From a virus (Duplodnaviria > Caudoviricetes), in IMG/VR virus record IMGVR_UViG_3300008255_000163, positions 1-52,175 of that record: 52,175 nt of DNA, one strand, 5' to 3'. The stretch's first letter is position 1, and every line of letters begins with the position of its first letter. The notes under the pieces are model-generated. The model saw only the letters and a list, made by a program, of their open reading frames with translations. It was not told the DNA's origin and did no database searches. Of this stretch, positions 3,361-44,219 are shown piece after piece. Position numbers and translations under genes: made by a program.

Positions 3361-4509
3361 CTACAGGGGTCCTTCGATCTTGATCTTGATGGCGCCAGGT
3401 TCGGTGTAGAGCCGCGAGAGCGTCTCCGAAGCGAGGATGCTCGCAATCGTCGTGTCGGCTGGCCCGCTGTTGACGACAACGCTCTGCAGGTCTGGGACGG
3501 AGCGGGCGAGCTCGCCGCGAACACCGTCGAAGCGGTAGACGTACGGGTTCGAGTTGCCGTCGAAGTACCGCACGACCGCCTTCGTTGCTTCGATTCGGAT
3601 CGCGTCCTGGTTGTAGCGGCCCGGGTCGCCCCAAAGGTGGAGCGTCAGGTCGAAGGAGCAGAGCGTGCGGCTCATTCCGAAGATGGTCATATCGCAACCA
3701 AGGACCCGAGCCGAATCGACCGCGACGCGGCATCGTCGGAGCAAGTCCGTGGTGGACTGGAACCCCGCATCGCCCACGAAACAGCGATTGATGCCATCGT
3801 CGGGCGTGATGAAGTCGCTCTCGAACAGCGCGACCTGGTTGGCCCCAGCGGCCTTGCACGCGTCGGTGATGGCGGTCGCGTATCCCCGACGCCGATCGAT
3901 CTTGTCCTGGCGGTACCGTGCGAGGTAGGTTGAATCGCTCTCTCGGTCCGTTCCATCTGCGCACACCACCCGCTCGACCGCCCACGTCGCGTCCCACAGC
4001 GCGTCCGAGAACGTGATCCTCGGACTAGGCAAACCAGCCGTGTCAATACCTACCCCAGTCCCGTACTCGTCGGCCTCGACGGGGATTGCAGCCGCAATCA
4101 CGGCATCCACTGAGGTATCGGACGATACGATGTAAATGCGCGGTCGAATCGTCCCGATTCCGGTCACCGAGATGCGCGTTCCGGCCCACACGGTGCCCGC
4201 GCCACCCGCGGTGGACAGCCTGCGAATGATGGCGTGCCCTGCCCCTCGCGTGGACTGCACTCGAGCGGGGCCATTGAAGGCGCTTATCCTGGCGTCGAGG
4301 TCCCCGTCGGTGGCGCCATCGAAGTAGCAGACTCGGAACAGGTCGCGATCCCGCCCCGCCATCCGCGCCCACAATAGCGCCCCCATCCCGGCGGCAACGT
4401 CGTAAATGGCCCCTCGATGAACGTCGGCCTCGCCGCGCCTGGAACGCAGCTCTGCGCCGAACACGTCGAGCAGATCTGGCACGCTGGGGAGCTCGAGATC
4501 GCTGCTCAT
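3361..4509 (-). CDS. Baseplate J-like wedge protein (copy 2)
   Basis: 'ATDGDLD', 'GTVWAGTRI', 'IPVEADEYGT', 'DGTDRESDSTYLAR' baseplate-J motifs; synteny. Confidence 0.8.
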   Translation of the reverse strand: MSSDLELPSVPDLLDVFGAELRSRRGEADVHRGAIYDVAAGMGALLWARMAGRDRDLFRVCYFDGATDGDLDARISAFNGPARVQSTRGAGHAIIRRLSTAGGAGTVWAGTRISVTGIGTIRPRIYIVSSDTSVDAVIAAAIPVEADEYGTGVGIDTAGLPSPRITFSDALWDATWAVERVVCADGTDRESDSTYLARYRQDKIDRRRGYATAITDACKAAGANQVALFESDFITPDDGINRCFVGDAGFQSTTDLLRRCRVAVDSARVLGCDMTIFGMSRTLCSFDLTLHLWGDPGRYNQDAIRIEATKAVVRYFDGNSNPYVYRFDGVRGELARSVPDLQSVVVNSGPADTTIASILASETLSRLYTEPGAIKIKIEGPL

Positions 4510-5282
4510 TGGGTCCGAACTCCGCTCTGTACTGGGATCGCTGTGCCGTCGATGAGAATGACGTTCACCTCGATCGTGGTCTGCTCGGGGTTGTTTTCAT
4601 CTGCCGGAAGCACGGTCGCCGCGGCGCGCTTCACGCGGTCGTCCTCGACTGCCTGCGCGGCCAATGTGCCCCTGAGCTGGTGGGCGGTGAACGGTGAGCC
4701 GTCGACGTACTCGCGAGGCTTGCCGCCGTAGCTGTCGTCCCACGGCAGTCCATCCGACGTGAGGCGACGGGCGATGGCAGCGCGCGCATTCTCCCGGCCT
4801 CCCACCGTTGCCAGGTCGCCTTGGGCGTCCTCGACAATATCAGACCCGTCCCAGACCAGATCGACGCCGAACGTCGCATCGAGAGCGTCCTCGTTGAGCG
4901 ACGCAGCTACAGGTCGAGGACGCTGGACGCCGATGCGAAACGGCAGCACCGAGCCGGCAGGTGTAACGTCTCCGTCCGAGTCAGGGACCGCCTCCGCATA
5001 GGCAAGGTAGTTCAGTCCCTCGACCAGATCAGCATCCAGAGCGAGTTCTACGATCGACGTGTTGCTGGGGACCACGAACGCCGCGACCACGGAAGGCGCT
5101 GTGCCGGTTTCGGCGACGATCGTGTAGAACGTGAGGGTCGTGAACGCAGCGGCTCCGAGTGGCTCTGAAAACTTGAGCCACAGCCTCCGGCGGCTCCGCG
5201 GGACTACGTCGATGAAGGCAATGATGCCGGCAACCGGCGTCGGGGGAGCGGGAACAGTGAGCGGCCACGAATAGGTTGGCAT
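4506..5282 (-). CDS. Baseplate wedge/sheath initiator (gp25/Mu gp46-like) with N-terminal Ig-like domain
   Basis: 'GDLATVGGRENARAAIARRL...LPWDDSYG...EDDRV' C-terminal domain; synteny. Confidence 0.75.
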   Translation of the reverse strand: MPTYSWPLTVPAPPTPVAGIIAFIDVVPRSRRRLWLKFSEPLGAAAFTTLTFYTIVAETGTAPSVVAAFVVPSNTSIVELALDADLVEGLNYLAYAEAVPDSDGDVTPAGSVLPFRIGVQRPRPVAASLNEDALDATFGVDLVWDGSDIVEDAQGDLATVGGRENARAAIARRLTSDGLPWDDSYGGKPREYVDGSPFTAHQLRGTLAAQAVEDDRVKRAAATVLPADENNPEQTTIEVNVILIDGTAIPVQSGVRTQ

Positions 5283-6773
5283 CTACGCCTCGTTTCCCGC
5301 TGCATCGATCGCGATGACCTGGATGGAAGGGCCAGCCTTCCACCCGCCCGTGCGCTGCACATCGAGCTGCACGCCACCTCCAACCGCTGTCTGAACCGAG
5401 GACAGAAACGGTCGCTGGAAGGCGTACCCGTCCCAGATCACCTCCGGCTGGTACTGCGCATACTTCGCTAGCAGAACGAGCCGTTGAAGGGTTCCCGCGT
5501 CAGTAACGGTGATCGTTACGATGTCAGTGGCGGTGATTGGCGTGCCGGCGGCGGGAGACACCGTCACGGTTGGGGCGGTGGTGTCACCACCGCTGCCGCC
5601 TTCCACGAAGGTCGGCTCTGACACCACAATGATCCCGGAACTTGCTGCGTTGCCGGTGCCTTTCGTTGCCCCCGCGGCCAGCAAAGCCCCGTCGCAGCAG
5701 ACAGACCACCCGTACCTGATGGTGCCCAGGTAGGGGGTGAGCTGGAGCGCCCGTTCGAGGTAACCCGTTGCCCAGTCTGGGTTGGGCGCGAACGTCGCGA
5801 CCAGTCCCTGGCTCGAGTTGGCAACGTGGGCGCCAGCGTAGACGACGCCATTCGCCATTGCCATCGCGTTTCTATCGGTGACGCTACTAGACCCCGTGGA
5901 GCCCACGTGCATGCTTTGGGCGTAGTCCGGGATGACCTTGCGCACGAATGACCACGTGGCGCCGGTCCACTCGTAGATGTAGAGCGCGCCAACGTTCGAT
6001 CCACCTTCGTCATCGTTCGGGCTGGCAATGCAAGCGAGTTCTCCACCAGAGTCGATGGCGACTCCCATCCCGAAGTGGTCACCTGCGTATGGGTCTGGGT
6101 TGGGCACTTTGAGTGTCTGCGTCCATGTGCCTCCGATGGGGTCGTATTCGAAAAACCACGCAGAGCCAGATTCGGAGCCACCATCGTCGTCGTATGGTCC
6201 ACCGATCAGCGCTCGGTTCCCCCGCAGTGCGACGCAACACCCGAACGAGTCGCCACCAGCAACGTCGGTTTGGTTCAACGACTTGCCTGTCCAGACACCT
6301 CCAGAACGATGGTAAGCACGCGCAGTGTTCCAGCCGCCCGTTTTGGGGCCGACGATCATGATGTCACCATCGAGTGCGATCGAGTGACCAAATCCCTCGA
6401 ATGCCGACGGGATGTCCGCCTGCAAAACCCATGTGCCGCCAGTGCGCTCGTACACGTATACGCGACCGTAGTAGGTGCCGTAGTCGGGGTTGCCAATCGC
6501 GATCGTCGTGCCGCTTACCGCGACTGCCGCTCCTAGATACACGTAGATACCTGCGCCGCTTACCTTCAGTACCTGCGTCCACACGCCAGCAATCCGCTCG
6601 TAGATGTATGCCGCGCCGCTGTCGGTGCCCCCCCCGTTGTTCCACGGGCAGCCTACGACCATATAGTCTCCATCTATCGCGACGGACCATCCATAAGCGT
6701 CGTCGGTCGCGCCATCTGCGGCGTAGACGATGGTCGCATCGCCGGCGACTAGGAGTTCAACGTTCTTGGTCAT
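5283..6773 (-). CDS. FG-GAP repeat beta-propeller protein with C-terminal Ig-like domain
   Basis: Repeated (Y/F)GxSVA(I/L)xGxxxxxGxP...GAAYIYE units; C-terminal DTTAPTV...AIDAAGNE. Confidence 0.85.
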   Translation of the reverse strand: MTKNVELLVAGDATIVYAADGATDDAYGWSVAIDGDYMVVGCPWNNGGGTDSGAAYIYERIAGVWTQVLKVSGAGIYVYLGAAVAVSGTTIAIGNPDYGTYYGRVYVYERTGGTWVLQADIPSAFEGFGHSIALDGDIMIVGPKTGGWNTARAYHRSGGVWTGKSLNQTDVAGGDSFGCCVALRGNRALIGGPYDDDGGSESGSAWFFEYDPIGGTWTQTLKVPNPDPYAGDHFGMGVAIDSGGELACIASPNDDEGGSNVGALYIYEWTGATWSFVRKVIPDYAQSMHVGSTGSSSVTDRNAMAMANGVVYAGAHVANSSQGLVATFAPNPDWATGYLERALQLTPYLGTIRYGWSVCCDGALLAAGATKGTGNAASSGIIVVSEPTFVEGGSGGDTTAPTVTVSPAAGTPITATDIVTITVTDAGTLQRLVLLAKYAQYQPEVIWDGYAFQRPFLSSVQTAVGGGVQLDVQRTGGWKAGPSIQVIAIDAAGNEA

Positions 6774-10555: not shown

Positions 10556-11574
10556 CAGCGTGGAATTATGTACTCGGTCCCGGGGACGGGATTGCCCGTC
10601 GCGCCGTTGGCCTGCCTGATGTCCGCCGCCCTACCAGCGTCTCCGAGGGTCTGCTGGGCAATACCCTCCCACGTGTCGCCGTCGCCAGCCACGTAGACGC
10701 CTTTGATCTTCCCGCGCTCGGCCTCACGAGCCGCTGCGTCCATGCGCTCGATCTCGATGATGGCCTTGAGCATCGCCGTACCTGTGGTGCTCTGCGCGTT
10801 CCAGAATGCGAGTGAGTCGTCCGGGTTGCTGCTCACGACCGCGGTGCCGGCCACCAAATCGCCGTAGGCATTCTTCGCCTTGATCACCGCCGTCCGAAGC
10901 TGCCTGAGTCCAGCGCGCAGTCGCCGGAGCTCAGACACGAGCCCCTGCTGGAACGAGTTGATCTGGTCGGCGATGTTCGCCACAGACGCGACCGCGGAGT
11001 TGATCGACCCGACCAGGCTTCCGAGCGAGTCGAGCAGCCCAACCTTGAGCGTCGGTGGAATGTCGAGCGCGGTATCCCATGCCTCGTCGATGTAGTCCTT
11101 GATGTTCAGAACGTAGGTCTTCGGGTCGGCTTCCGCAGGCTGCGCATTCCGCACCACGCGAAGAAGATCTTCGTCGATCTTGATCGTCATCTTCCAGGCG
11201 ATCTCGGCCTCGGCCTCACGCCCCGGAGAAAACATCTCGATGAGGCCTGTGGCTGCGACGATGCCGTCCCACGCGATCGCGACCTGCTGCTGGTCGGCGA
11301 CGAAGCGCTTGATGTACTCCGTCAGCGTCTTCGCGTATCCAGGCCCGCCGTTGCGGTCAGAGAATCGCCCCTCGAGCTCCCACTGCTCTTCACGAGTGCC
11401 AAATAGGTGCCGCGTCGGGACGGAGTTGCCTGGATAGTAGACTTCGGTGTTTCGAACGGACAGTGCATCCGTAACAACCGCGCCTTGCCGTGGGCGCCCA
11501 TGGGGCGCAAACGCTCCTGCCAGGCTCAATTCAAGCCTGTCGCCGCCGAGTTGGGAGAAGTGGAACTCACCCAT
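10555..11574 (-). CDS. Tail tube initiator with C-terminal LysM domain
   Basis: C-terminal YVAGDGDTWEGIAQQTLGDAGRAADIRQANG..PVPGTEYIIP; directly after tape measure. Confidence 0.85.
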   Translation of the reverse strand: MGEFHFSQLGGDRLELSLAGAFAPHGRPRQGAVVTDALSVRNTEVYYPGNSVPTRHLFGTREEQWELEGRFSDRNGGPGYAKTLTEYIKRFVADQQQVAIAWDGIVAATGLIEMFSPGREAEAEIAWKMTIKIDEDLLRVVRNAQPAEADPKTYVLNIKDYIDEAWDTALDIPPTLKVGLLDSLGSLVGSINSAVASVANIADQINSFQQGLVSELRRLRAGLRQLRTAVIKAKNAYGDLVAGTAVVSSNPDDSLAFWNAQSTTGTAMLKAIIEIERMDAAAREAERGKIKGVYVAGDGDTWEGIAQQTLGDAGRAADIRQANGATGNPVPGTEYIIPR

Positions 11575-13488
11575 CTACGGCCTCGATGCGGAGTAGTTCG
11601 GAACGCCTCGGCTCATGCGGGGGTGTCGCTGGAAGTTCTGGATCTCCCCGAGCACGGCTCGAGCAATGCGGCTCGGGTCCTGGTTCGAGGTGACGACGAT
11701 CTCGACCTTCTGGACCGTCGTTCCGCCTCCTCCTCCACCGTGTTTGGGGGCGCCGCCCTTCCCCTTGCCGACAGTGCCAGCGGCCATGGCATTTGCTACA
11801 GCGGTCATGGTGCCCATGGTCATGTTACTCAGAGCGCTGGCTGCTGCATCGTTGCCCATCTGCGCAGCTCTGGCGACCGTTCCGACATCTCCGCCCCGGC
11901 CACCAATTGCCCCCAGCGCGGCCGCGGCCCCGTAGGCGGCGGACGCCACGGACGCCATGGCTTCACCGGCCAGCGCCGCAGAAGCTGACGCAGAATCCCC
12001 GCTGTCGATGTAGTTCTGCATCACACTGCCGAAATCACCATACGCCGCTTCAGCGTACGTGAGTTCGCGTCCGAACTTCTTGACGGAGTTTGTTCCGAAG
12101 TCGAACGCGGCCATGGCGTTCAGAGGTGCGTCATGGTCGATCTCAGTGAACAGCTTGGTCGCCTGGTCGTACGCCATCGCGACGCCAGCAACGGCGGCGG
12201 CAACCGCGAGCAACGGAAGGGCAGCTCCGGCGGCAGCCGATCCGAGTTTTGTAATGCTTCCTGCAGCAGCTGTTCCTGCACCGATCCAACCCATCGACTT
12301 GGCAAGCTGAGCACCTCCCCCAGCAATCCCCGCCACATCCCCAGCGACGCCCAGCGCCCCGCCCGCCGCCGCTCCACCGACCTTCAGGCCAGCGTAAAGC
12401 TTCATGACGGTGATGATCTTGTCGATGCTCCCGGGGTCTTTCAGAAAGGTCTTGAGCGACTCTCCGGCTCCCTTGAGCGTGGGACCGAGTTCCTTCCACA
12501 CCTCGACGAGCTTCGTGTAGGCGTTCTGCCCAAACGTTTCGATGGCCGGCCACCATTCCTGCAGCGCGGACTTGCCAGCGTCGAAGGCGTAGGCGAGCTT
12601 GGAGCCGATGGCATCCGCCTTGGTCTTGAGGTAGCCCTCGTTGCCGTCGAACCAGTCGTTGATGTACATCAGGCTCGACTTCACCCGATTGAACAACGGC
12701 TCAGTCACCTTGCCAAGCAGCGACTTCGCGTTGTCTGCCAGCGTGGTCGACATCCCCTCGAAGGAGGTCTTGTAGATCTCAATGGCGGGAGCAAAGCGGT
12801 CGAGCTCCGAGCTGATGCGCTTCAGTCGTTCCTCGGGCTTGAGCTTGTTGAACTCGGCAGCCTTGTCGCCACCGAGCCCTGCGACGCGCATGCCGAACAC
12901 GTTGTGAGCACCGGCGCGCCCCTCGATGAGCATTGCGAACTCGCGCGCCACTTGGTCCAGAGGCATCCCGACGGTCGCCCCGGTTGCCATCGCCTTCGCC
13001 GCGAGCCCTCGCAGCTGGTCCTTGTCGGCCCCCGCCTTGAACCCTGGCGTGGCGATCATCGTGTAGATGTTCATCAGGTCGGAGAACTCGCCGGGCAGCG
13101 AAGCAGCATCCTTGCGCATCTGCTTCATCGTCGCGCCCGCCATATCCAGGCCGGTGTAAATACTGCTTGATTGGCCGTTGGCCGTGAAGATCGCTCCGAG
13201 CTGAATCTTCGTCTTCTCGAGCTCGTTGTTGTACTTGACCACCCCGTAGGCAGCGAGACCGAAGGCCCCCGCGATTCCCACCTTCGCCGCCATCGAGCCG
13301 ACCTCGAAGATCTTGCCGGCCACCGCATCGAGCGGACGCATAACCCTCGAGCCCATGGACTGCAGCGAGCGCATGAACTGACCCGCAGCCTGGTCGGCAC
13401 CCACGAGCTTCGCCCGCGCACGATCGGCACCGGGGGCGAGATTGCCCTTGGTGCTCATGTCGATGACGACGGTGTAGGTGGTGCCCAT
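11575..13488 (-). CDS. Tape measure protein
   Basis: 637 aa, Ala/Gly-rich helical; 'SFEGMSTTLADN' motif; position in tail operon. Confidence 0.85.
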   Translation of the reverse strand: MGTTYTVVIDMSTKGNLAPGADRARAKLVGADQAAGQFMRSLQSMGSRVMRPLDAVAGKIFEVGSMAAKVGIAGAFGLAAYGVVKYNNELEKTKIQLGAIFTANGQSSSIYTGLDMAGATMKQMRKDAASLPGEFSDLMNIYTMIATPGFKAGADKDQLRGLAAKAMATGATVGMPLDQVAREFAMLIEGRAGAHNVFGMRVAGLGGDKAAEFNKLKPEERLKRISSELDRFAPAIEIYKTSFEGMSTTLADNAKSLLGKVTEPLFNRVKSSLMYINDWFDGNEGYLKTKADAIGSKLAYAFDAGKSALQEWWPAIETFGQNAYTKLVEVWKELGPTLKGAGESLKTFLKDPGSIDKIITVMKLYAGLKVGGAAAGGALGVAGDVAGIAGGGAQLAKSMGWIGAGTAAAGSITKLGSAAAGAALPLLAVAAAVAGVAMAYDQATKLFTEIDHDAPLNAMAAFDFGTNSVKKFGRELTYAEAAYGDFGSVMQNYIDSGDSASASAALAGEAMASVASAAYGAAAALGAIGGRGGDVGTVARAAQMGNDAAASALSNMTMGTMTAVANAMAAGTVGKGKGGAPKHGGGGGGTTVQKVEIVVTSNQDPSRIARAVLGEIQNFQRHPRMSRGVPNYSASRP

Positions 13489-22100: not shown

Positions 22101-23120
22101 TCAGGTCGCCACGTTCTTGCGGTAGCCGCAGCTGTTGGGCTTGTCGCAGACCATCTGCAGGTAGGTCTTGAGCATGGCTTTGTCCGAGTCGCCCGCCTTG
22201 GCGAGCATCTCGTAGACGAAGCCGAGGGGCAGCGCGCCATAGCCGTCGTCGGCCTGGACGAGCTGGGCCAGCATCTCGCGCACCACCGGGCTGGCGGGCG
22301 GGAGGTACTCGAGCCACAGATGGTTGGTGTTGATGTACGCGATCGTGTTGGCGACGGCGTCCTTGTCCTTGAGGAACACGGTGCTGTCGAGCATGATCCC
22401 CTCGAACCCCATGTCGAGCGTGATCATGCCGCGAGCGGTGGCGACCTGGCTGACGTAGTGACGATTCGGGTCGAACAGGCTGCCGATCTTGTTGAACACC
22501 GCACCGGAGCACACCGCGATGTCGGGCGTTTCGCCGGACGCATCGAAGATGGTCTGGATGTCGCTGCGCAGAAGCGAGAAGGTCGGAGCCGTCAGAGCCC
22601 CGGGGTCCACGACGGTCGGGAGCCAGTAGGAGTTGGCTCCCACCGTTCGGTCGATCCCTGCGTAGGTGTTCGTGGTGTCGCCGATGGCGACGCCGAGCCC
22701 GGCAATTGTGGTGCCGGTGCCAGCCCCACTGTGCAATGCGCCGTTGATGGTGCTCGCCAGCTTCGAAGAGGAGTTGACGAGGTTGTTCGCCCAAAGGCGA
22801 CGGTTGCCTTGTGGGGTGGCGCTCGTCCCGGCTGCGGCTTGCGCAAGGCCGGTGACGCGGAAGTTGGACCGGTACAGGCCCCAAGGCAGGCTCGCGCCCG
22901 CCTGAGCGTCGGACCCGAAGTTCGCAGCGTCTGCCCCGTCGGCAAAGTTCTCGGCGACGGCGCCATCGGCCTCGATGGTCCATGCGCACGTCTTGCCTTC
23001 ACCCTGCTTGATTTGCAGGGCCCGCAGAAGAGCGGAGCGCCGGTTGACCTGATGGACGAGCCGCGCGCGGTACTGCGTCGCCAGAACGATGAGTGCGAGG
23101 GTCTGCGGAGTGTCTCCCAT
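22101..23120 (-). CDS. Major capsid protein
   Basis: 339 aa after scaffold; 'YAGIDRT', 'PDIAVCSGAVF', 'LAKAGDSDKAML' typical HK97-fold MCP motifs. Confidence 0.88.
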   Translation of the reverse strand: MGDTPQTLALIVLATQYRARLVHQVNRRSALLRALQIKQGEGKTCAWTIEADGAVAENFADGADAANFGSDAQAGASLPWGLYRSNFRVTGLAQAAAGTSATPQGNRRLWANNLVNSSSKLASTINGALHSGAGTGTTIAGLGVAIGDTTNTYAGIDRTVGANSYWLPTVVDPGALTAPTFSLLRSDIQTIFDASGETPDIAVCSGAVFNKIGSLFDPNRHYVSQVATARGMITLDMGFEGIMLDSTVFLKDKDAVANTIAYINTNHLWLEYLPPASPVVREMLAQLVQADDGYGALPLGFVYEMLAKAGDSDKAMLKTYLQMVCDKPNSCGYRKNVAT

Positions 23121-23157
23121 GACAACTATTCCCTGACGGGGCCCCTACGATTGATTG

Positions 23158-24036
23158 CTATTGGTTGGACAGCGCTTCGCCCAGACCCAATTTGTCGAGC
23201 AGTTCTGCTGCCCGACGGTCGGCCTCGTCGTCGCTCAACGCGGCGGACTTGAACCGAGGATCGATCTGTTGACGCTGCTGTTCCTGGCGCTGTCCATTGC
23301 CCTGCCCGGCGGCCCCGCCTGGTGCTGGGAGAAACGGCTCAGCAGCCTTGCTCTTGGCAAACTGTTTGACGCCCTCGGAGATCGAGAACGTTTGCTCCTC
23401 CTCAGGCAAGCCCTTTCCAGGCGAGACCTTGAGGCGGAGTTGCGGGTTGCCTTCGCTATCGAAGTCCACTCGCTTGTCGGCGTGAAACCATGTCTTGGCG
23501 AGAAGGTCGACGAGCTCGGGGCGCACTTTGGCATCCACAAGCGATTGCCGAAGCTCAGCGTAGGTCCGCTCATCGCGAGCCTTGAGCTCGGTCTCGACTC
23601 TCGCCTTGCGCTCGGCTTCGAACTTAGCGTTGAGCTCGTCGTACTGCTTCTGCAGCTTGAGAGTCTCTTCGCTCTGCTCCTTGGGCTTGTCGTCGGGCTT
23701 CGGCTTGCCCTTGTCGGACTCGGGGGTCTTCGGCTTCAGCTCGTCGAAGCGCTTGCCGAATTCGTCGAACTTCGCCCCAAACTGCTCTCCAAGCGACTTG
23801 GTCACGGTCTCCGCCACCCCTTCGAGCGCCTTGGGGATCGCTCGCTTGAGGTGTGCGGTCACGACGGAGTTGATGGTATTCGTCAGCTCCTGCGGGTCGA
23901 TTCCTGCCGGCGGCGGGTTCTGCTGTCCGCCCGGATTCGGGTTCGGGTTGGTGTCGTCCTAAGCGACCTCCCGTCGGGAGACCGACTTGACAACGAGGTT
24001 GACGTTCCCGATTTGCGACTGGGTGTCGTACGGCAT
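23158..24036 (-). CDS. Capsid scaffolding protein; frame from ATG 24036 interrupted by in-frame TAG at 23959-23961 (fallback GTG start 23862)
   Basis: Coiled-coil K/E-rich body and 'PFLPAPGGAAGQG' scaffold-type tail upstream of MCP; GGAGGG RBS before ATG 24036; N/P/G/Q-rich sequence continues in frame after the TAG. Confidence 0.75.
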
Positions 24037-24273
24037 AGATCCCTCCGTTCACGTCCCGGCCGTCGGGGCGTGTCGTGGTGCGCCGCAACTGCGGCGTTTG
24101 GTGACGGTGACTCGCTACCGTCGAAGCGCGTCCCGGTTCGTCCGGAACAAGCATTCAAGCGCACGGCGTGTGCGCTCAAGCTGGCGATTCACTTCCGCCA
24201 AGGTGGCACGGTCGACCTTCGACGCATTGAGCGTCAGCCTGTCGAGCGGCCTGAAGATCCGTGTTCTCATGAG

Positions 24274-24582
24274 CTAGGCCAGCAACGCATCGGCCACACC
24301 GATCGTCACGGCGGCGTCGTCTTCAATCTCCGGGTCGACGAAGATCGTTTGAAAGCGCGTCTTCGACGGCTCCGACATTGAACCATCCTCGGGGACGTTC
24401 ATCGTCTCCTCCACGTAGTTCCCGTCCACGTCGATACCGTGGAGCGTGAACGTCTTCACGCGGCCACTGGTCGATACGCTGCACCGCTCGGCAACCGGGT
24501 TGCCAAACTGGTCCCGGCCGGTCACCTCGTACCTGCCATCTGAGACGTTGGCGAAGACTTCGCGGAGATCCTTCGTCAGCAT
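24274..24582 (-). CDS. Hypothetical virion-like protein with two 'xxGxDxxGNxVxE' motifs
   Basis: GAAAGAGGAA RBS, MLTKDL…VTGRDQFGNPVAE…LHGIDVDGNYVEE. Confidence 0.7.
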   Translation of the reverse strand: MLTKDLREVFANVSDGRYEVTGRDQFGNPVAERCSVSTSGRVKTFTLHGIDVDGNYVEETMNVPEDGSMSEPSKTRFQTIFVDPEIEDDAAVTIGVADALLA

Positions 24583-24585
24583 GGT

Positions 24586-24656
24586 TTCCTCTTTCAGCCT
24601 GCACAAACGCCAGCGCGCACCCGACCCGGAAAGAGGAACAGGTCAGACAGCGCGCT
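24586..24656 (-). promoter_or_regulatory. Hairpin whose loop is complementary to the downstream RBS
   Basis: Stem AGCGCGC..UCUGACCUG/CGGGUCGGG.GCGCGCU; loop UUCCUCUUUC pairs with GAAAGAGGAA at 24586-24595. Confidence 0.55.
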
Positions 24657-24668
24657 CGCGCATCGTGC

Positions 24669-25892
24669 CTACGGCGAAGTTGGAATCAACTCGCCGAACT
24701 CGAACCTTGCTGCCGGAGCGCCAATCGCCCGGCCGAGGTACTCTTCGTGAATGGCGCGTGGCGTTCGGCTGTCCGTCCGCCTGCCTTCGCGCATCGGATT
24801 GGTCTTGCGCAGTCGGGGCACCACCGGAGCGTGCCTGTCGACTCCATCCTTGACGGTCTCGAGGTGGCGCCGAATCTCCGGGGTCAGGAGCCTGGCTCGT
24901 ACATCCGGGTCAGACTTCGCTTTGCCCATGAGCCGGAACCACGCCTGCTTCGTCTCGGGGGGCCACTTGTCCCAGTCCTCGAACGCCTTGCGTGTCGAGG
25001 GCCCACCGATTGCTGCGCGCCCCAGTCCGGGGCCAGCAACCTCTCGCGTCACGGCGTGGGCCAGGTTCAGATCGGTGGAAGAGAGGGCGACCATCGACTG
25101 GCACCTGCAATGCGGGTGGACTTCGCCGGGGATGTCTCCGCCTCGAAACGGCTTCGACGCCTCGACCACTTCGTTGTCGTGGTTGGCGCAGACCCGGCAA
25201 ATCTTTCGATCGAGCACGCCTTCCCACCGCTTGTGGAGCAGTCGCTGCAGCGGAGCGGCCTTGACCTGCTCTGCCGCTGCGTCCATCTGTCGCCCATGTT
25301 CCTCGGCGTAGGCAACCGCGGTCTCGGTTGCAGCGGTCCTGTCAAGGCTCGGAGCGATGCGCTTGGCGCCGTCCCGGGCCGTCTGGGGGAGAGAGGTCTT
25401 GCCGCCGGCGGACTCCCATTGTCGGACCGCTGTGGTGGTGGACAGCAGCCACCGACTGGCGAGAGACCGACTCGCTGATGCTGCCCGCGCCGCGTCGATT
25501 GCCCCCTCTGCCACTGGGAGGGCGCGCAGGGGCACCGTTGGAATCTCGTAGGCCCGAAGGAGCCAATCGACCTCAGCGAACTGCGCCCCAGCGTGAGCAG
25601 CGGCTGTGGAGCGGCCTCGAGCGATTGCGGAAGCCAGCGCCAACTCAGCCCCACGCTCAATCTCTCCGTGAGCCCTGCGGGTGGCCGCATGGGCTGCGAC
25701 CGCTGCGGCTGAGACATCTGCCGTGCTGATCGACGACAGCGAGTCAATCAGAGCTGCAGTCGCTACCGCAACGACAGCATCGAGGTCCCTGCGAGCGGCC
25801 TTCTCTGCCGAGAGCATGGCGCCAGTAGAGCGCTTTGCAAGCTCGCTCCCGTCGCGGAGGGTTGGGACGACGTCACTGCTCTTCGTCGCCAT
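24669..25892 (-). CDS. Minor head protein (SPP1 gp7/MuF-like)
   Basis: 'RTAATET', 'KRWEGVLDRKICRVC', 'HPHCRC'. Confidence 0.85.
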   Translation of the reverse strand: MATKSSDVVPTLRDGSELAKRSTGAMLSAEKAARRDLDAVVAVATAALIDSLSSISTADVSAAAVAAHAATRRAHGEIERGAELALASAIARGRSTAAAHAGAQFAEVDWLLRAYEIPTVPLRALPVAEGAIDAARAASASRSLASRWLLSTTTAVRQWESAGGKTSLPQTARDGAKRIAPSLDRTAATETAVAYAEEHGRQMDAAAEQVKAAPLQRLLHKRWEGVLDRKICRVCANHDNEVVEASKPFRGGDIPGEVHPHCRCQSMVALSSTDLNLAHAVTREVAGPGLGRAAIGGPSTRKAFEDWDKWPPETKQAWFRLMGKAKSDPDVRARLLTPEIRRHLETVKDGVDRHAPVVPRLRKTNPMREGRRTDSRTPRAIHEEYLGRAIGAPAARFEFGELIPTSP

Positions 25893-29249: not shown

Positions 29250-29324
29250 TGGTAGCGCGAGGTGGACTCGAACCACCGACCGCCGGGTTATGGGCCCGGA
29301 GAGCTGCCACTGCTCCATCGCGCT
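29250..29324 (-). tRNA. tRNA with CAT anticodon, initiator-Met-like, encoded CCA
   Basis: AGCGCGA-TG-GAGC AGTGGCA GCTC-T-CCGGG CCCATAA CCCGG-CGGTC-GGTGG TTCGAGT CCACC-TCGCGCT-A-CCA. Confidence 0.92.
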
Positions 29325-30824: not shown

Positions 30825-31420
30825 CACACCCTCGCCTTCGAGTAAGCCTCCAGAGCCGCTCGCAACCACGCTGCCGCCTCGGTCACCAGTTCCTCGAGGA
30901 TCGTCCGCTCCGCGCTGCTGTCCGACGTGTGCATGCGCTGGACAGCGTCCCGTGGGCCAAGGTCGTCGGGCGGCTCTCGATCCTGCTTTTCGGCCCGGCG
31001 CCGGCGCTTCTCGTTAACCTTTGCCGTCGCCACCCGAACAGGCTTGGTCATGCACAACAGGCTCAGCGACACGCCGTGGATCCGAACAGCGTCCCCGAAG
31101 TGCAGCTCGAGCACGGCATGGTCCCGCTGTCCGAGCTGCTGGAGTCGCTGGTAGACGCGGTGGGCGTCGTCGAGCTTCTTGCGTCGGTTGTCGAGGCGCT
31201 CCATTGCGTCCCAGCTCGCGCTGCATGTCGATCGCGTCTCGTGAGCGGGATGGTCCGCTTCTCCGACCGGTAGCCATTCCCAACCGCGGGCCCTGCCGGT
31301 TTTCGCGAGCTTGTCCATGGCGGCTTCGAATCCGCCTTGCACCGAACGCACACCGCAATCGGCCTCCGCCGCGCCGGAAAAGTACCACTCCAGCTCTGCC
31401 ACTTCATCGATCGACAGCAT
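30824..31420 (-). CDS. Hypothetical protein, possible late transcription regulator
   Basis: 198 aa overlapping sigma gene; 'LQQLGQRDHAVLELHF' resembles start of sigma region 4. Confidence 0.55.
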   Translation of the reverse strand: MLSIDEVAELEWYFSGAAEADCGVRSVQGGFEAAMDKLAKTGRARGWEWLPVGEADHPAHETRSTCSASWDAMERLDNRRKKLDDAHRVYQRLQQLGQRDHAVLELHFGDAVRIHGVSLSLLCMTKPVRVATAKVNEKRRRRAEKQDREPPDDLGPRDAVQRMHTSDSSAERTILEELVTEAAAWLRAALEAYSKARV

Positions 31421-32189
31421 TCACCCCTCCAAGCCTCGCCCGGAGCTTTCCGAGCGCAAGTATCTCGATCTGCTGCACTCTCTGACGCGTCACGCCGAAC
31501 TGCTGCCCTATCTCCTCGAACGACATCGGGTGGCGGGACAGGTGACGCCATATGATGACGTTGCGCATCTTCTCAGGCAGGCTGTCCACCGCGATGCGTA
31601 CGGCCTTGTCTTGAGCCGCTTGGTTCAGCGCGGCGTCAGCGGGCGCGCTCGGGTCTGCCAGGACGTTCTCCAGCGTTCGCCCATCCTCGTCCGAAGCAGC
31701 TGCGTCCAGCGACGCAATCCTGTGGTGCATGGCGATGAATCCCTCTGCGATGTCTCGCCTCCAACCCGCTGCCACAATCGCGTCCACCGGGTCATTACCA
31801 GTTGCGTGCGCCGCATCCATGATCTTCTTGAGCGGATAGTACCGAGTGAACAGAATCGATTTGACCCCGCTGCGACCCGCGGCGAACTGGAGCTTTGACT
31901 CGCGCCTGATGTGCTGCGTCCACCAGTGTTGTGCGTACGTCGAGAACCGGACTCCGACGGCGGGATCGAACTTGTCGATCGCGTGGACGGTGCCCATGAG
32001 TGCGAGTTGCATCAGATCCTCGGCGTCCTGTTCAGTCGCCTGCCCCCGGGCCCATCGCTTCACATCGACGTTGATCAGCTTCACGAGCGAGGACAGGATC
32101 CGAACGATCGCAGCATCGTCGCCGGCCTTCGCTCTGACGATGAGGTCGCACTCCTCCTCCGGAGTCATCGGCGGCGTGGCAGCGATCAT
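31404..32189 (-). CDS. Sigma-70 family RNA polymerase sigma factor (RpoD/RpoH-like regions 2-4)
   Basis: 'EDLMQLALMG..HAIDKFDP..GVRFSTYAQHW', 'SLDA', 'MSFEEIGQQFGVTRQRVQQIE'. Confidence 0.92.
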   Translation of the reverse strand: MIAATPPMTPEEECDLIVRAKAGDDAAIVRILSSLVKLINVDVKRWARGQATEQDAEDLMQLALMGTVHAIDKFDPAVGVRFSTYAQHWWTQHIRRESKLQFAAGRSGVKSILFTRYYPLKKIMDAAHATGNDPVDAIVAAGWRRDIAEGFIAMHHRIASLDAAASDEDGRTLENVLADPSAPADAALNQAAQDKAVRIAVDSLPEKMRNVIIWRHLSRHPMSFEEIGQQFGVTRQRVQQIEILALGKLRARLGGVNAVDR

Positions 32190-41254: not shown

Positions 41255-42804
41255 GCGCTCATCTCCCGCGCTCGTCCGAGTACGTTGGCGGCAACAACCG
41301 CCTCCGCGACCTGGGGACAAACCGAGTTTCCGGCCAGCGCGATCTGCGCTGTCTTCGTCAGCGGCTTGCCGTTGAACTCCGGCGCTACCTCGTAGTCGGT
41401 CGGGAACCCCTGCGCGGCGAACAGCTCGTGGGGCTGGAGCATCCGCATGCCGATGTCGACGATCTGGTAGGCCTCGCCAGCCACCAGCACGAGACCAAAC
41501 CGATTCGCGGTGTCCACGGTCCGCATCGGCGCATCGAGAGGAAGGACTCGCTGACGCTCCCCACCGTGGTACTTCATCAAGAACGCGCGAACCTCGCCAA
41601 GGTGCCCGCCCCCCTTCCCGCCGCCAGCGGTGATGGTGGGAACCGGCGACGAGCAGCTCGAGCCCGTGGAAGTGCCGTAGAACTTCGTGAGGAAGGCGCT
41701 CGTTAGCGCGTGGTGGTCCTTGGCCGTGACAGTGCCGAGCGTGCGGTCGACGGGGTGGCCGACCATTCCACCGTAATGCTTGGTGATGATCGGCATCACG
41801 AGGTGCTTGTCGTTGGTGGCGCACACCGTGCCGAGCGGGGCTTCGAGCGACTGACCGCGGAACGTTCCGGCGCCGCAGCCTTCTCGCAGCCCGGCCCCTG
41901 TCTTCGTCGAGTAGTGCCCATGGCGGACGAGGAACGGGGTCACGAGACCGTGGTGCCCACCTCCACGAGCCGTCACCGTGGGAAGCGGGTAGCGAACGCT
42001 GCGTCCAACGGACTGCCCGTAGTGGCTGACGATGAATGGCTCCGCGGCGTCGATGACGTACCGCCGGATGCCCGCTGCAATCCGTCGCATCGTCGCCTCA
42101 GCAAGCGGCCGCCGGCGCTCGAAGATGCTAGGACACGGCAGCGACCAGTCGATGATGTCGGACGCCGGGCGCCACGGTGTTCGTCCCTTGCCGTGCGTCG
42201 GCTCAGGCCAAATGATGTCGCCGCCGTCCCGACGTGCGACCAGGAACAACCGCCGGCGGGTCGTCGGCGTGCCGTAGTCCGCCGCCACCATCGACTTGAA
42301 TTCGACCTCGTAGCCCAGGCTCTTGAGCTTCGAGAGCCACGCCCGGAACGTCTTCCCGACCTTCCCCGGGTCCGGCCGGCCGCCAACCACCGGGCCCCAG
42401 GTCTGGAACTCCTCGACGTTCTCGAGGACGATTACGCGAGGTCGCACGGTGGACGCCCACCGAATGACGACCCAGGCCAGTCCACGGATCGACTTCTTGA
42501 CCGGCTGCGTGCCTTTCGCGCGCGAGAAGTGGGTACAGTCGGGGCTGAACCACGCGAGCCCGACCGGGCGGGATCCGCACGCCTCGCGCGGGTCGACCTC
42601 CCAGATGTTCTCGCAGTAGTGTCGCGTCTCCGGGTGGTTCGCGCGGTGCATCGCGATCGCTTCTGGGCTGTGGTTGATCGCGATGTCGACCGGACGACCG
42701 AGCGCGGCCTCGATGCCTGTGGACGCCCCGCCGCCGCCCGCGAAGTTATCGACCACCAGCTCCCCAGGAAGCGCGTGGAAGGCTCGAATGGTGGGAGCCC
42801 GCAT
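41251..42804 (-). CDS. DNA C5-cytosine methyltransferase
   Basis: DNFAGGGG, SPDCTHFS, LENVEEF, R.RLF, AGNSV; ATG 42804 overlaps integrase TGA. Confidence 0.94.
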   Translation of the reverse strand: MRAPTIRAFHALPGELVVDNFAGGGGASTGIEAALGRPVDIAINHSPEAIAMHRANHPETRHYCENIWEVDPREACGSRPVGLAWFSPDCTHFSRAKGTQPVKKSIRGLAWVVIRWASTVRPRVIVLENVEEFQTWGPVVGGRPDPGKVGKTFRAWLSKLKSLGYEVEFKSMVAADYGTPTTRRRLFLVARRDGGDIIWPEPTHGKGRTPWRPASDIIDWSLPCPSIFERRRPLAEATMRRIAAGIRRYVIDAAEPFIVSHYGQSVGRSVRYPLPTVTARGGGHHGLVTPFLVRHGHYSTKTGAGLREGCGAGTFRGQSLEAPLGTVCATNDKHLVMPIITKHYGGMVGHPVDRTLGTVTAKDHHALTSAFLTKFYGTSTGSSCSSPVPTITAGGGKGGGHLGEVRAFLMKYHGGERQRVLPLDAPMRTVDTANRFGLVLVAGEAYQIVDIGMRMLQPHELFAAQGFPTDYEVAPEFNGKPLTKTAQIALAGNSVCPQVAEAVVAANVLGRAREMSA

Positions 42805-44219
42805 CACGCCCACCCCTCCGCCACCCTGAGCTGCTCCGACATGTCCCGCGGGTCGCCGACGAGTTGTGGAACGTGATCCCATGGCGTCCACGAGGCGTGA
42901 AGTTCAAGGTCGGTGGGGTCGTTCTGTTCCGATACGACCCAAACGGGGCGTGTCTCACCGGATTCGTCTGTGATCTCAACGCAGTGGAATAGGGTTCCTA
43001 AACCGTTGGCCACAAGTTCGACTCTTGTCGGGGGCGCAGTGTTTTCGCTCAACCGTGGGACGTATGTGGGACGTACCTCGGTGTTGTGAACCCGCACAGC
43101 TCGGACGGCGAGGTCATCGACAACGTGTGCGTACATGGCCGTCACGTATGTGGTCGAGTGCCCGAGTAGTGCCGCGACCTCGGCCATGGTCCAGGCCGGT
43201 CCCCACAGTCCACACAGGAGCGACGTGGCGCAGGTGTGACGAAGGTCATGCCACCGCACGCGCCGGTCGATACCAGCGGCCTTCAGCCACTCACTCCATC
43301 GACGAGGAGGCTTTGGGACACCGGTTGGAAGCGCGGGACGACGCTTGCCGCGCACGGTCGGGAACGCCAGGCCAGTAGCGAATCCCTTGCCTCGGTACCC
43401 GGTTTCGCGCCACTGACGCATCGCCTTCTGTGCTGCGTTGATGAGCGGGACGGTGCGAGGCTTGCCACTCTTGGTTGGCATGTCTTCGTGGCCACCGAAG
43501 CGCACCACGAAACGGTCATCGAGGCAGTCGACTAGCCGCAAGGCCCACTGTTCGCCCTCACGGATGCCCGTGTACATGGCGACAGCGACAATAGGCCATT
43601 CAACCGGACTGGAGATTGCTACGGCGTCAAGGAGGCGTCGCTGCTCGTCCAGGGTCAAGTACGTCCACGCGTCGTCAATGCGGCGTTGCTTGGCCGCCTG
43701 GACGCCGTCGGCTGCGTTGATGTCGACTAGCCCGAGTTCCTTGGCGTCGGCAAGCACGAGCCGAACGAGAGTCAGCACTTGGGTGACGCTCGATCGCGAC
43801 AACTTGCGCCCGGTGGGCTTGGAGCACTTCCATCCTGGGGCCGCATCGGTGGCAGCGAGTCGGTCGCGCAGTTCTCGCACCATCCTCGGCGTCACCATGT
43901 CCACCGGGGTGTCACCGATGAGCGTGTTCTGGATGTGCACCTTCCACTTCGATCGCTCCGAATCGACGTTACGCTTCCCCTGGGACTCTCGCTTGCCAAG
44001 CATGACATCTCCGTACGAGGACAACGACACTGCCCCTGAAAGATCGGGCTGTTCGCGAATGACCTCGGAACGAATGGCCTCCCCGATTGCGTCGGCGGCC
44101 TCGGCCGTGGGGGCCGTCCCAAACCGCCTGCGCCCTTTCCCCGGGATCGTCAGACGGATCGAGTGCCTCTCTCCGCGCGCCTCGATGGTTCCAGTCCCCT
44201 TCTTTCGTCTGTTCACCAT
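42804..44219 (-). CDS. int: Tyrosine integrase
   Basis: YTGIREGE, TKSG, HDLRHT, LGH, Y (TAMYAH). Confidence 0.95.
   Translation of the reverse strand: MVNRRKKGTGTIEARGERHSIRLTIPGKGRRRFGTAPTAEAADAIGEAIRSEVIREQPDLSGAVSLSSYGDVMLGKRESQGKRNVDSERSKWKVHIQNTLIGDTPVDMVTPRMVRELRDRLAATDAAPGWKCSKPTGRKLSRSSVTQVLTLVRLVLADAKELGLVDINAADGVQAAKQRRIDDAWTYLTLDEQRRLLDAVAISSPVEWPIVAVAMYTGIREGEQWALRLVDCLDDRFVVRFGGHEDMPTKSGKPRTVPLINAAQKAMRQWRETGYRGKGFATGLAFPTVRGKRRPALPTGVPKPPRRWSEWLKAAGIDRRVRWHDLRHTCATSLLCGLWGPAWTMAEVAALLGHSTTYVTAMYAHVVDDLAVRAVRVHNTEVRPTYVPRLSENTAPPTRVELVANGLGTLFHCVEITDESGETRPVWVVSEQNDPTDLELHASWTPWDHVPQLVGDPRDMSEQLRVAEGWA
42995..43036 (+). other. attP core: 3' half of tRNA-Arg(CCT), inside the integrase ORF
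   Basis: TT CCT AA ACCGT TGGCC ACAAG TTCGACT CTTGT CGGGGGC G; the matching 5' tRNA half is absent upstream. Confidence 0.8.
43055..43075. repeat. Direct repeat, probable integrase arm-type sites
   Basis: GTGGGACGTA x2 (43055, 43066); related GTGGAACGTG at 42866 on the other side of the core. Confidence 0.6.

What the first reader, a model, noticed from the sequence alone, without database searches (positions are those of the whole stretch)
23950..24047. Scaffold gene interrupted by an in-frame amber stop inside a 72-nt direct-repeat-bounded segment: candidate ribosomal bypass, readthrough or excisable micro-element
Seen: GGAGGG-RBS then ATG CCG TAC GAC ACC…(25 codons)…GCT TAG GAC GAC ACC AAC CCG AAC CCG…, continuing in frame into the scaffold body. 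The 8-mer ACGACACC occurs twice, exactly 72 nt apart (plus strand GGTGTCGT at 23950 and 24022). Removing or hopping one interval gives a clean MPYDTNPNPNPGG… scaffold N-terminus. A hairpin (CTCCC-GAC-GGGAG core) sits just before the TAG, and a second SD (GGGAGG) lies 5 nt before the TAG, placing the TAG at a start-codon position. The next in-frame start (GTG 23862) lacks a well-spaced RBS. Known precedent: T4 gene 60 bypassing uses matched take-off/landing codons, a stop and a hairpin, although its stop directly follows take-off. Inference: a recoding checkpoint controlling capsid assembly.
Basis: partly seen in the sequence, partly recalled or inferred. Interest (0 to 1): 0.85.

Follow-up and report, generated by a model that had tools for sequence, protein, structure and literature searches.

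The report
Amber stop splitting a phage scaffold gene
A phage head-scaffolding gene carries a real, naturally conserved stop codon 26 codons in, inside a 72-base insertion that its relatives lack, so the rest of the gene has no start codon of its own and how it gets made is unknown.

Summary
On the minus strand a strong ribosome-binding site and ATG (24036) open 25 codons that end at TAG (23961-23959). The same frame then runs into a 266-codon head-scaffolding gene. ACGACACC occurs at 24029-24022 and 23957-23950, 72 nt apart.

The TAG is not an assembly error. A contig from an independent study is identical across it. Four protein variants on 13 contigs are all called from the downstream GTG, and no uninterrupted version was found.

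Sixteen relatives lack the 24-codon segment and start with an ordinary ATG. Family N-termini align at the TAG position.

The segment looks translated: its GC by codon position is 0.60/0.36/0.84, both changes in a 96.5%-identical strain are synonymous, and a divergent strain has a net +3 indel.

Gene-60-type bypassing is not supported. No stop follows take-off, the nascent chain is 5 residues, the gap looks coding and is 72 nt long, and the first repeat is broken in one strain. TAG recoding is excluded, since 8 of 50 predicted genes end in TAG.

The expression route is unresolved. My estimates are in-frame continuation past the TAG about 0.35, a downstream restart 0.28, and a broken gene 0.15. 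This is a real anomaly, but no mechanism has been shown.

The parts
24041..24046 (-). Shine-Dalgarno GGAGGG, 4 nt before ATG 24036. It is probably the ancestral ribosome-binding site of the scaffold gene.
   Evidence: It is among the best SD-plus-ATG contexts of the 41 starts listed.
23959..24036 (-). Leader ORF of 25 codons plus TAG. An in-frame TGA at 24051-24049 closes the frame upstream.
   Evidence: GC by codon position is 0.60/0.36/0.84, like the phage's genes. Both X3 changes are synonymous. A divergent X2 strain has a net +3 indel.
24022..24029 (-). First copy of ACGACACC (leader codons 3-5).
   Evidence: Interrupted by a 3-nt insertion in a divergent X2 contig.
23958..24021 (-). The 64 nt between the repeats. 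With one repeat copy this makes the 72-nt (24-codon) segment that relatives lack.
   Evidence: MAFFT of 18 sequences places 24 columns unique to the window here. No other copy in the window or in 11 loci. Its 19-nt hairpin core has no exact match in IMG/VR.
23953..23994 (-). Imperfect hairpin. Its 3' arm holds the second SD-like motif, the TAG and the start of the second repeat.
   Evidence: -20.1 kcal/mol, z -2.10, 5 of 200 shuffles as stable. The X3/X2 change at 23962 would break one outer pair.
23967..23972 (-). SD-like GGGAGG, 5 nt before the TAG and 8 nt before the next codon (GAC).
   Evidence: The geometry matches the phage's SD-TAG-ATG gene junctions, but with GAC where those have ATG.
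23959..23961 (-). In-frame amber codon TAG, followed by G.
   Evidence: The GTG-start gene calls in 4 protein variants on 13 contigs imply an upstream stop.
23950..23957 (-). Second copy of ACGACACC.
23863..23958 (-). 32 codons after the TAG with no ATG, GTG or TTG. They are homologous to the low-complexity N-termini of relatives.
   Evidence: GC by codon position 0.62/0.47/0.84. Aligns to the N-termini of P0004, P0012 and L002. Residues 2-3 of relatives align to read-through residues 26-33.
23884..23886 (-). In-frame CTG, 72 nt after the TAG. The 76%-identical relative P0002 has its called ATG at this position.
23860..23862 (-). GTG, the first canonical start, 96 nt after the TAG. It has no SD and lies inside the invariant INSVVT motif.
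23158..23958 (-). Scaffold body (266 codons plus its own TAG stop).
   Evidence: phrog_206; homologues.
22101..23120 (-). Major capsid protein gene immediately downstream (context).
   Evidence: phrog_9953 E 2.7e-23; PF17236.

Best explanation
A 72-nt in-frame insertion, whose last codon is TAG, sits after codon 5 of the scaffolding gene of this temperate, myovirus-like phage and is fixed in its natural lineage. The insertion leaves the gene's original ribosome-binding site and ATG in front of a 25-codon leader. The 266-codon body is left without a start codon.

Ribosomes load at the leader and translate it as ordinary coding sequence. At the TAG most of them terminate. I judge it most likely that the body is made by ribosomes that continue in the same frame past the TAG. 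That could be through leaky termination, or through an amber-suppressing tRNA from the host or from the unseen half of the phage genome. The amber codon would then set how much scaffold is made.

Shown: the insertion, the reality and conservation of the TAG, the coding-like behaviour of the leader, the absence of a nearby start, and the absence of a TAG code change.

Inferred: that the leader is translated, that the 32 codons after the TAG are still translated, and the continuation itself.
For: 1. The TAG is genuine and fixed. An X2 contig from another study is identical over 583 nt, and an X3 contig at 96.5% identity spans the site with no listed change at the TAG. Cluster members P0001, P0009, P0010 and P0011 (13 contigs) are all called from the GTG. 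No protein of 161-513 aa among 5.8 billion shares the read-through N-terminus.
2. The leader behaves as translated sequence. It has SD plus ATG. Its GC by codon position is 0.60/0.36/0.84, against about 0.65/0.45/0.80 for genes and 0.62/0.81/0.65 for the upstream spacer. Two of 2 X3 changes are synonymous. Indels in a divergent strain sum to +3.
3. The 32 post-TAG codons keep the coding signature and their homology to relatives' N-termini.
4. Ninety-one of 93 relatives with a recognisable motif have 16 or more residues before it. The other two are P0105 (9 residues) and P0002 (4 residues), the window's closest relative.
5. The alternatives are weak. The nearest canonical start is 96 nt away, has no SD and lies inside the invariant motif. 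In an E. coli reporter, re-initiation fell to under 3% at 40 nt (PMC2268962, passages read).
6. Inference: direct repeats offer an easy precise-deletion route. Persistence of the insertion across habitats therefore suggests it is not costly.
Against: - No stimulator of readthrough was identified.
- By recall, UAG followed by G is not a leaky context in E. coli.
- TAG is an ordinary terminator here. It ends 8 of 50 predicted genes, including this gene itself, so an efficient suppressor would extend or fuse many proteins.
- The 52 kb seen contains no suppressor tRNA, only tRNA-Met.
- Scaffolds are needed in high copy number, and basal readthrough is typically very low.
- The read-through product would carry 24-25 extra residues that none of the 150 listed relatives has.
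- The state of the TAG in the divergent X2 strain was not displayed.
Confidence: 0.35

Rival explanations
1. Restart downstream. The leader is a dead-end upstream ORF. The scaffold is made as an N-terminally shortened protein, from CTG 23886, ATC 23874 or GTG 23862. Initiation would be either independent or by ribosomes that have just terminated at the TAG. This resembles the classical restart proteins seen after early nonsense mutations (recalled: lacI, T4 rIIB).
For: The closest relative P0002 (76% identity) has its called ATG exactly at the window's CTG position. The stretch before the GTG is locally AT-rich for this genome. Roughly half of the phage's genes lack a clear SD. No recoding is needed.
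Against: The GTG cuts the invariant motif; N56, invariant in 18 of 18 sequences, would be lost. CTG and ATC are poor starts, and the only SD-like AGGAG abuts the CTG. These codons lie 72-96 nt from the stop, whereas re-initiation was under 3% at 40 nt in E. coli (PMC2268962). Ninety-one of 93 relatives keep 16 or more residues before the motif. The skipped 32 codons still look coding.
Confidence: 0.28
2. Broken gene. The insertion with its stop inactivates or cripples the scaffold in a temperate phage that persists mainly as a prophage (an integrase-family gene lies at 42804-44219), or that relies on another scaffold.
For: Integrase, HTH regulator and antirepressor genes are present. This is the simplest reading of a stop codon in an essential gene. 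The record is only about 48% complete.
Against: The same allele occurs in aquifer, cold-spring and soil runs from several studies and in 4 protein variants. There is no further decay: no frameshifts and no second stop in the leader or body, and the changes seen are synonymous or in-frame. The neighbouring orf110 shows 11 synonymous against 10 non-synonymous changes, which is above the neutral expectation. No relative was found in 185,579 representative bacterial genomes.
Confidence: 0.15
3. Programmed translational bypass. Peptidyl-tRNA leaves GAC-ACC at codons 4-5 and re-pairs at the identical codons 72 nt downstream, skipping the segment and its TAG.
For: The 8-nt match lies at both edges of the alignment-defined insertion. 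The product would have a family-typical N-terminus and length. A hairpin and an SD-like motif lie before the landing site. Internal SD and stem-loop signals are discussed for phiHau3 and gene 60 (PMC10732093, passages read).
Against: No stop or rare codon follows the take-off, whereas all known cases have a slow-to-decode A-site codon (PMC10732093). The nascent chain is only 5 residues, whereas gene 60 needs a nascent-peptide signal (abstracts of PMC5462505 and PMC11194080). At 72 nt the gap exceeds the roughly 56-nt high-processivity range (PMC11194080). The gap has coding composition and synonymous-only changes. The first repeat carries a 3-nt insertion in a divergent strain. Repeats of this size occur in 22% of windows.
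Confidence: 0.05
4. DNA-level excision. Recombination or slippage between the 8-bp repeats removes the 72 bp in a subpopulation and restores an intact gene, as a phase-variation-like switch.
For: Perfect 8-bp direct repeats sit exactly at the insertion edges.
Against: No joint was reported in any of 4 runs, and contigs in X2 and X3 bridge the insertion intact. Contigs hide rare variants, so this is weak evidence. No recombinase site or inverted repeats were found, and there is no second copy of the element.
Confidence: 0.03

Closest known systems
T4 gene 60 translational bypass and its homologues; proposed phiHau3 terminase bypass; Magnusiomyces mitochondrial byps (PMC10732093 and PMC11194080, passages; abstracts of PMC5462505 and bioRxiv 10.1101/2022.08.31.505936)
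   Same: An insert that relatives lack sits inside an essential phage gene. Identical codons flank it. It contains an in-frame stop, and a hairpin and an SD-like motif lie nearby.
   Different: The stop is at the 3' end of the segment, not next to the take-off. There is no usable nascent peptide. The segment is 72 nt, is in frame and looks like translated coding sequence.
Programmed stop-codon readthrough producing an extended phage structural protein (Qbeta A1 readthrough protein; recalled, no paper read)
   Same: An in-frame stop has coding sequence on both sides in a virion-assembly gene. The stop is conserved within the lineage.
   Different: Here the stop lies 26 codons from the start, so the readthrough product would be the main functional protein rather than a minor extended form. 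The stop is UAG-G. No stimulatory element has been shown.
Upstream-ORF translational coupling and termination-reinitiation (PMC2268962 and PMC9955659, passages; PMC6728339, abstract)
   Same: A short ORF with its own strong RBS ends at a stop preceded by an SD-like motif. The geometry is the same as the phage's own SD-TAG-ATG junctions.
   Different: There is no start codon at or near the stop. GAC follows the TAG, and the nearest canonical start is 96 nt away.
Stop-codon-reassigned phages (TAG read as an amino acid; recalled)
   Same: An in-frame TAG in a late structural gene.
   Different: There is only one such TAG. TAG ends 8 of 50 predicted genes. No suppressor tRNA is present in the 52 kb seen.

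Membership tests
Gene-60-type programmed bypass | Matched take-off and landing codons | tested here: met
   GAC ACC lies at both sites within an exact 8-mer. Such repeats occur in 177 of 801 windows.
Gene-60-type programmed bypass | Stop or slow-to-decode codon directly 3' of the take-off codon | tested here: not met
   The next codon is CAG. The TAG is at the far end of the segment.
Gene-60-type programmed bypass | Nascent-peptide signal in the exit tunnel at take-off | tested here: not met
   Take-off would be at codon 5.
Gene-60-type programmed bypass | Non-coding gap of about 50 nt with a take-off stem-loop at its 5' end | tested here: not met
   The gap is 72 nt with GC by codon position 0.60/0.36/0.84. 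The only notable hairpin is at the 3' end.
Gene-60-type programmed bypass | Signals conserved in relatives that carry the insert | tested here: inconclusive
   The X3 strain keeps both repeats. A divergent X2 contig has 3 nt inserted in the first repeat, and its second repeat and TAG were not displayed.
Programmed stop-codon readthrough | In-frame stop with conserved coding sequence on both sides | tested here: met
Programmed stop-codon readthrough | The stop is conserved rather than replaced by sense codons in close relatives | tested here: met
   Four protein variants on 13 contigs are all called from the GTG. X2 is identical, and X3 has no listed change at the TAG. No uninterrupted form was found.
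Programmed stop-codon readthrough | Leaky context, stimulatory structure or suppressor tRNA | tested here: inconclusive
   The context is UAG-G. The hairpin lies upstream of and around the stop. There is no suppressor tRNA in the window, but only about 48% of the genome is seen.
Programmed stop-codon readthrough | Extended protein detected | not testable with these tools
   No RNA or protein data. No RNA holder was listed.
TAG-reassigned phage code | Many in-frame TAGs, and TAG avoided as a terminator | tested here: not met
   Stops of 50 predicted genes: TGA 41, TAG 8, TAA 1. Only this gene is interrupted.
Termination-reinitiation coupling | Restart codon overlapping or within a few nt of the upstream stop | tested here: not met
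   In-frame candidates lie 57 (ATC), 72 (CTG), 84 (ATC) and 96 (GTG) nt after the TAG.
Miniature mobile element (MITE or IS footprint) | Target-site duplication | tested here: met
   An 8-bp direct repeat lies at the alignment-defined edges.
Miniature mobile element (MITE or IS footprint) | Terminal inverted repeats and multiple copies | tested here: not met
   No terminal inverted repeats. No second copy in the window or in 11 loci. No exact match to the 19-nt core in IMG/VR.
Phage head scaffolding protein (phrog_206-like family) | Profile match, position between the portal/MuF genes and the major capsid gene, and a conserved N-terminal VNSAVTxQLKR-type motif | tested here: met
   phrog_206 at E 1.2e-4. 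Gene order. Motif invariant in 18 of 18 sequences. 353 homologues.

The most novel reading that the evidence does not exclude
The junction could be a natural 'terminate-and-carry-on' site. The SD-like GGGAGG 5 nt before the TAG would tether the post-termination ribosome. Translation would then resume at the very next codon (GAC) with no start codon. This would release the 25-residue leader peptide and a separate scaffold that begins at the family-typical position. Start-codon-independent reading in frame with the stop has so far been described only when ribosome recycling factor is inactivated (PMC9955659, passages read). Alternatively, the site could be a bypass or efficient site-specific readthrough that uses signals unlike any known case.
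Probability: 0.1. Interest if true: 0.9.

Novelty: new variant of a known kind. Interest (0 to 1): 0.55.

Why it matters
A scaffolding protein is essential and is needed in many copies. In this lineage, found in aquifer, cold-spring and soil metagenomes, its gene has kept an amber codon 26 codons in, and the body has no usable start.

If the gene is functional, then one of three things is happening. This UAG may be passed efficiently by some route not predictable from known signals. The family's near-universal N-terminal segment may be dispensable. Or the scaffold dose may be deliberately throttled by a leader ORF.

Any of these can be tested with a simple reporter and N-terminal mass spectrometry. 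The case would either add to the very short list of natural prokaryotic recoding sites in structural genes, or give a clean example of a tolerated early nonsense insertion.

Tried and rejected
- **Sequencing or assembly error:** rejected.
- **Global TAG reassignment:** rejected.
- **Suppressor tRNA in the window:** none, only tRNA-Met.
- **Tandem duplication of the initiation region as the origin of the insert:** no support; 258 of 2000 shuffles score as well.
- **Insert as a repeated element:** no other copy.
- **Homology of the leader peptide to the longer N-termini of some relatives:** not supported. None of the 150 listed phmmer hits aligns to read-through residues 1-20, and MAFFT treats it as a unique insertion.
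- **+1 frameshift of the prfB type at the SD-GCU-UAG site:** rejected on reading the sequence, because the +1 frame ends at a TGA after 24 codons and is not the scaffold frame.
- **Rfam families at the site:** none.
- **Promoter scan over 23100-24700:** none found.
- **DNA of the closest relatives (P0002, P0012) was sought and not obtained:**
  - Viral contigs;
  - Metagenome contigs, which gave one distant locus only;
  - Genome contigs, which gave none;
  - phage GenBank records, which gave one 29%-identical hit and no nucleotide match.
- **Runs X7 and X8:** no contig over the TAG site.
- **RNA evidence:** no RNA holder was listed.
- **Earlier findings of this scan:** none.
- **Literature on amber or readthrough in scaffold genes:** one full-text search returned 3 papers, none with a relevant title or abstract.

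Full report
**Context.** The window is a complete IMG/VR virus record of 52,175 bp. It is linear and estimated at about 48% complete, with 63.6% GC. Almost all of its genes are on the minus strand.

The head module, read on the minus strand, runs as follows:
- large terminase, 28811-27360;
- portal, 27360-25873;
- MuF-like minor head protein, 25892-24669;
- two small ORFs, 24606-24274 and 24270-24115;
- the feature under study;
- the scaffold gene;
- major capsid protein, 23120-22101.

Further genes give a tail sheath, baseplate J, an integrase-family protein, an HTH regulator, a P22-type antirepressor, DnaB, primase, two methylases and a sigma-70-family protein. This is a temperate, myovirus-like phage of a bacterium.

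**The observation.**
- GGAGGG lies 4 nt before ATG 24036.
- Then come 25 codons and TAG 23961-23959.
- The same frame then stays open for 266 codons, to the gene's own TAG at 23160-23158.
- There is no ATG, GTG or TTG before GTG 23862.
- ACGACACC occurs at 24029-24022 and at 23957-23950.
- GGGAGG lies 5 nt before the TAG.
- A hairpin spans 23994-23953 (-20.1 kcal/mol, z -2.10, 5 of 200 shuffles as stable). The wider 131 nt is unremarkable (z 0.32).

The body matches the head-scaffolding family phrog_206 (E 1.2e-4). It has 353 homologues at E<=1e-3 among 1.84 billion representative proteins.

**Is the TAG real?** Yes.
- Twelve runs were listed for 23300-24700. Eleven of them hold the stretch or part of it, and they come from seven studies.
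- I laid four of the twelve runs (X2, X3, X7, X8).
- X2, from a different study and habitat, has a 583-nt contig identical over 23503-24085.
- X3 has a 2,013-nt contig that covers the whole stretch with 46 differences. Its only listed changes between 23863 and 24086 are at 23962 and 23995.
- Two X3 changes were not displayed, one A>G and one C>T. They probably belong to a spurious 37-nt match, but I cannot fully exclude a change at the TAG from that table alone.
- Independent support comes from the protein cluster. P0001 (IMG, 2 contigs), P0009 (9 contigs, carrying the same S-to-P change as X3), P0010 (an 85.5-kb contig) and P0011 all begin at the GTG. That is what a gene caller does only when a stop lies upstream.
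- No protein of 161-513 residues among 5.8 billion shares the first 62 residues of the read-through translation.
- X7 and X8 have no contig over the site.

**Relatives.** Seventeen homologues were aligned with the read-through translation: seven database proteins and ten IMG/VR loci.
- Sixteen begin with an ordinary ATG 20-45 residues before an invariant motif of the form VNSAVTxQLKR.
- In all ten loci that ATG follows a purine-rich SD-like motif, and no stop lies between it and the motif.
- MAFFT aligns the window's MP with their MP or MA. It aligns DDTNPNPNPGGQQNPPPAG with their low-complexity N-termini; P0004, for example, has a GQQPPPAG stretch. It leaves 24 columns, including the stop, as an insertion found only in the window.
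- In the phmmer search, none of the 150 listed hits aligns to read-through residues 1-20. Residues 2-3 of many hits align to residues 26-33, that is, at the TAG.

I then looked at motif position across the family. I examined 153 homologues, leaving out the window's own cluster of 4. My motif pattern matched 93 of them and failed on 60.
- Eighty-eight have 21 or more residues before the motif, and 3 have 11-20.
- One has 9 residues (P0105), and one has 4 residues.
- The one with 4 residues is P0002, the window's closest relative at 76% identity. Its call starts at MANTINSVV.
- Thirty-seven of the 93 start with MP.

So the ATG at 24036, with its MP-Y-D-T opening, looks like the ancestral scaffold start. 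The 72 nt looks like an insertion behind codon 5. P0002's short call suggests, but does not show, that it is interrupted too. I could not obtain its DNA.

**The repeat.** An exact direct repeat of 8 nt or more within 100 nt is common in this record. It occurs in 177 of 801 windows, and 125 of those have in-frame spacing. ACGACACC itself occurs 6 times against 2.7 expected, and 7 of 100 shuffles reach 6. The repeat alone is therefore not evidence.

Its coincidence with the alignment-defined edges of the insertion is more specific. It most simply marks how the insertion arose, either as a target duplication or through microhomology.

The insert has no terminal inverted repeats. It has no second copy in the window or in 11 loci. 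Its 19-nt core has no exact match in IMG/VR. It also does not look like a duplicated copy of the upstream initiation region (258 of 2000 shuffles score as well).

**Is the segment translated?** The evidence points that way.
- Its GC by codon position is 0.60/0.36/0.84. Eleven genes give about 0.65/0.45/0.80, and the spacer just upstream gives 0.62/0.81/0.65.
- Both X3 changes inside it are synonymous third-position changes, GCT to GCC and CTC to CTA.
- A roughly 85-90%-identical X2 contig over 23957-24085 has indels that sum to +3. One of them is a 3-nt insertion inside the first repeat.
- The 32 codons after the TAG keep the same coding signature, 0.62/0.47/0.84.
- Another X2 contig diverges after 23941 but continues in frame for the ten codons shown. 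Those codons resemble the true N-terminus of P0012.

**What this excludes.**

*A changed genetic code.* TAG ends 8 of 50 predicted genes, against TGA 41 and TAA 1. Those eight include the scaffold gene itself. TAG also ends both small upstream ORFs, though only orf110 is among the 50. No other gene is interrupted.

*A bypass of the gene-60 type.* The codon after the take-off is CAG. Only five residues have been made at that point. The 'gap' is 72 nt and looks like coding sequence. Published work places a slow-to-decode codon at the take-off (PMC10732093, passages), a nascent-peptide signal (abstracts of PMC5462505 and PMC11194080) and high processivity only up to about 56 nt (PMC11194080, passages).

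*Deletion of the segment.* No contig with the 72 nt removed was reported in the four runs. Contigs cannot show rare variants, so this is weak evidence.

**What remains.** The body has no start.
- In-frame candidates lie 57 nt (ATC), 72 nt (CTG), 84 nt (ATC) and 96 nt (GTG) after the TAG. None has a well-spaced SD, and the GTG cuts the invariant motif.
- In an E. coli reporter, re-initiation fell to under 3% once stop and start were 40 nt apart (PMC2268962, passages).

The phage's own gene junctions are of interest here. Four genes end in TAG followed directly, and in frame, by the ATG of the next gene, with an SD 5-9 nt before that ATG. Two more have TAG, three bases, then ATG. TAGATG occurs 16 times against 6.1 expected, and no shuffle out of 100 reaches 16. 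The leader-body junction has exactly this geometry: GGGAGG, five bases, TAG. The difference is that GAC stands where the others have ATG.

**Verdict on mechanism.** I rank in-frame continuation past the TAG first, at about 0.35. This covers leaky termination and suppression by a tRNA from the host or from the unseen half of the genome. It is the only reading that uses the strong ancestral initiation site, the translated-looking leader and the still-coding 32 codons.
- A downstream restart giving a shortened scaffold is close behind, at about 0.28.
- A crippled gene in a mostly lysogenic phage is at about 0.15.
- Bypass is at about 0.05.
- DNA excision is at about 0.03.
- The rest is unassigned.

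Start-codon-independent resumption at the codon after the stop is known only when ribosome recycling factor is inactivated (PMC9955659, passages). It is my most novel reading that the evidence does not exclude.

One argument is inference only. Direct repeats make a precise deletion easy. Persistence of the interrupted allele in several habitats therefore suggests that it is not costly.

**Limits.**
- The state of the TAG in the divergent X2 strain was not displayed.
- The DNA of P0002 and P0012 was not obtained.
- About half of the phage genome is unseen.
- There are no RNA or protein data.
- Supplementary files were not consulted for any of the papers cited.

Noticed in passing
window 3358-3363, 5280-5285, 11572-11577, 51628-51633 (minus strand): Four gene pairs are joined as TAG directly followed, in frame, by the next gene's ATG, with an SD 5-9 nt before that ATG. 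TAGATG occurs 16 times against 6.1 expected, and no shuffle out of 100 reaches 16. Reading through any of these TAGs would fuse neighbouring proteins.
   Followed up: partly
window 29250-29324 (minus strand): The only tRNA is a tRNA-Met (CAT). By eye it has an A1:U72 pair, three G:C pairs closing the anticodon stem, and C rather than U before the anticodon. This is an odd mix of initiator-like and elongator-like features.
   Followed up: partly
window 23158-24606 (minus strand): orf110 (24606-24274), orf51 (24270-24115), the leader ORF and the scaffold all lie in the same reading frame, separated only by TAG or TGA stops. This may be coincidence.
   Followed up: no
window about 24087: There is a sharp change in divergence between strains. 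The X3 contig differs at 4 listed sites in 23300-24086, against 36 listed sites plus indels in 24087-24700. X8 shares the changes it covers, 14 of the listed sites from 23338 to 24266. This looks like a mosaic or recombination boundary about 50 nt upstream of the leader ATG.
   Followed up: partly
window 31404-32189 and 42804-44219 (minus strand): The phage encodes a sigma-70-family protein (regions 2 and 4). Its integrase-family gene sits in the middle of the replication and modification genes rather than at an end of the record.
   Followed up: no
window 5283-6773 (minus strand): A 496-residue protein with FG-GAP repeats (E 1.9e-41) lies in the baseplate and tail-fibre region. It is possibly a receptor-binding component.
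   Followed up: no
window 24155-24179 (minus strand): A terminator-like hairpin lies inside orf51, upstream of the leader. The scan found 1 such site against 1.6 expected, so it is not significant.
   Followed up: no
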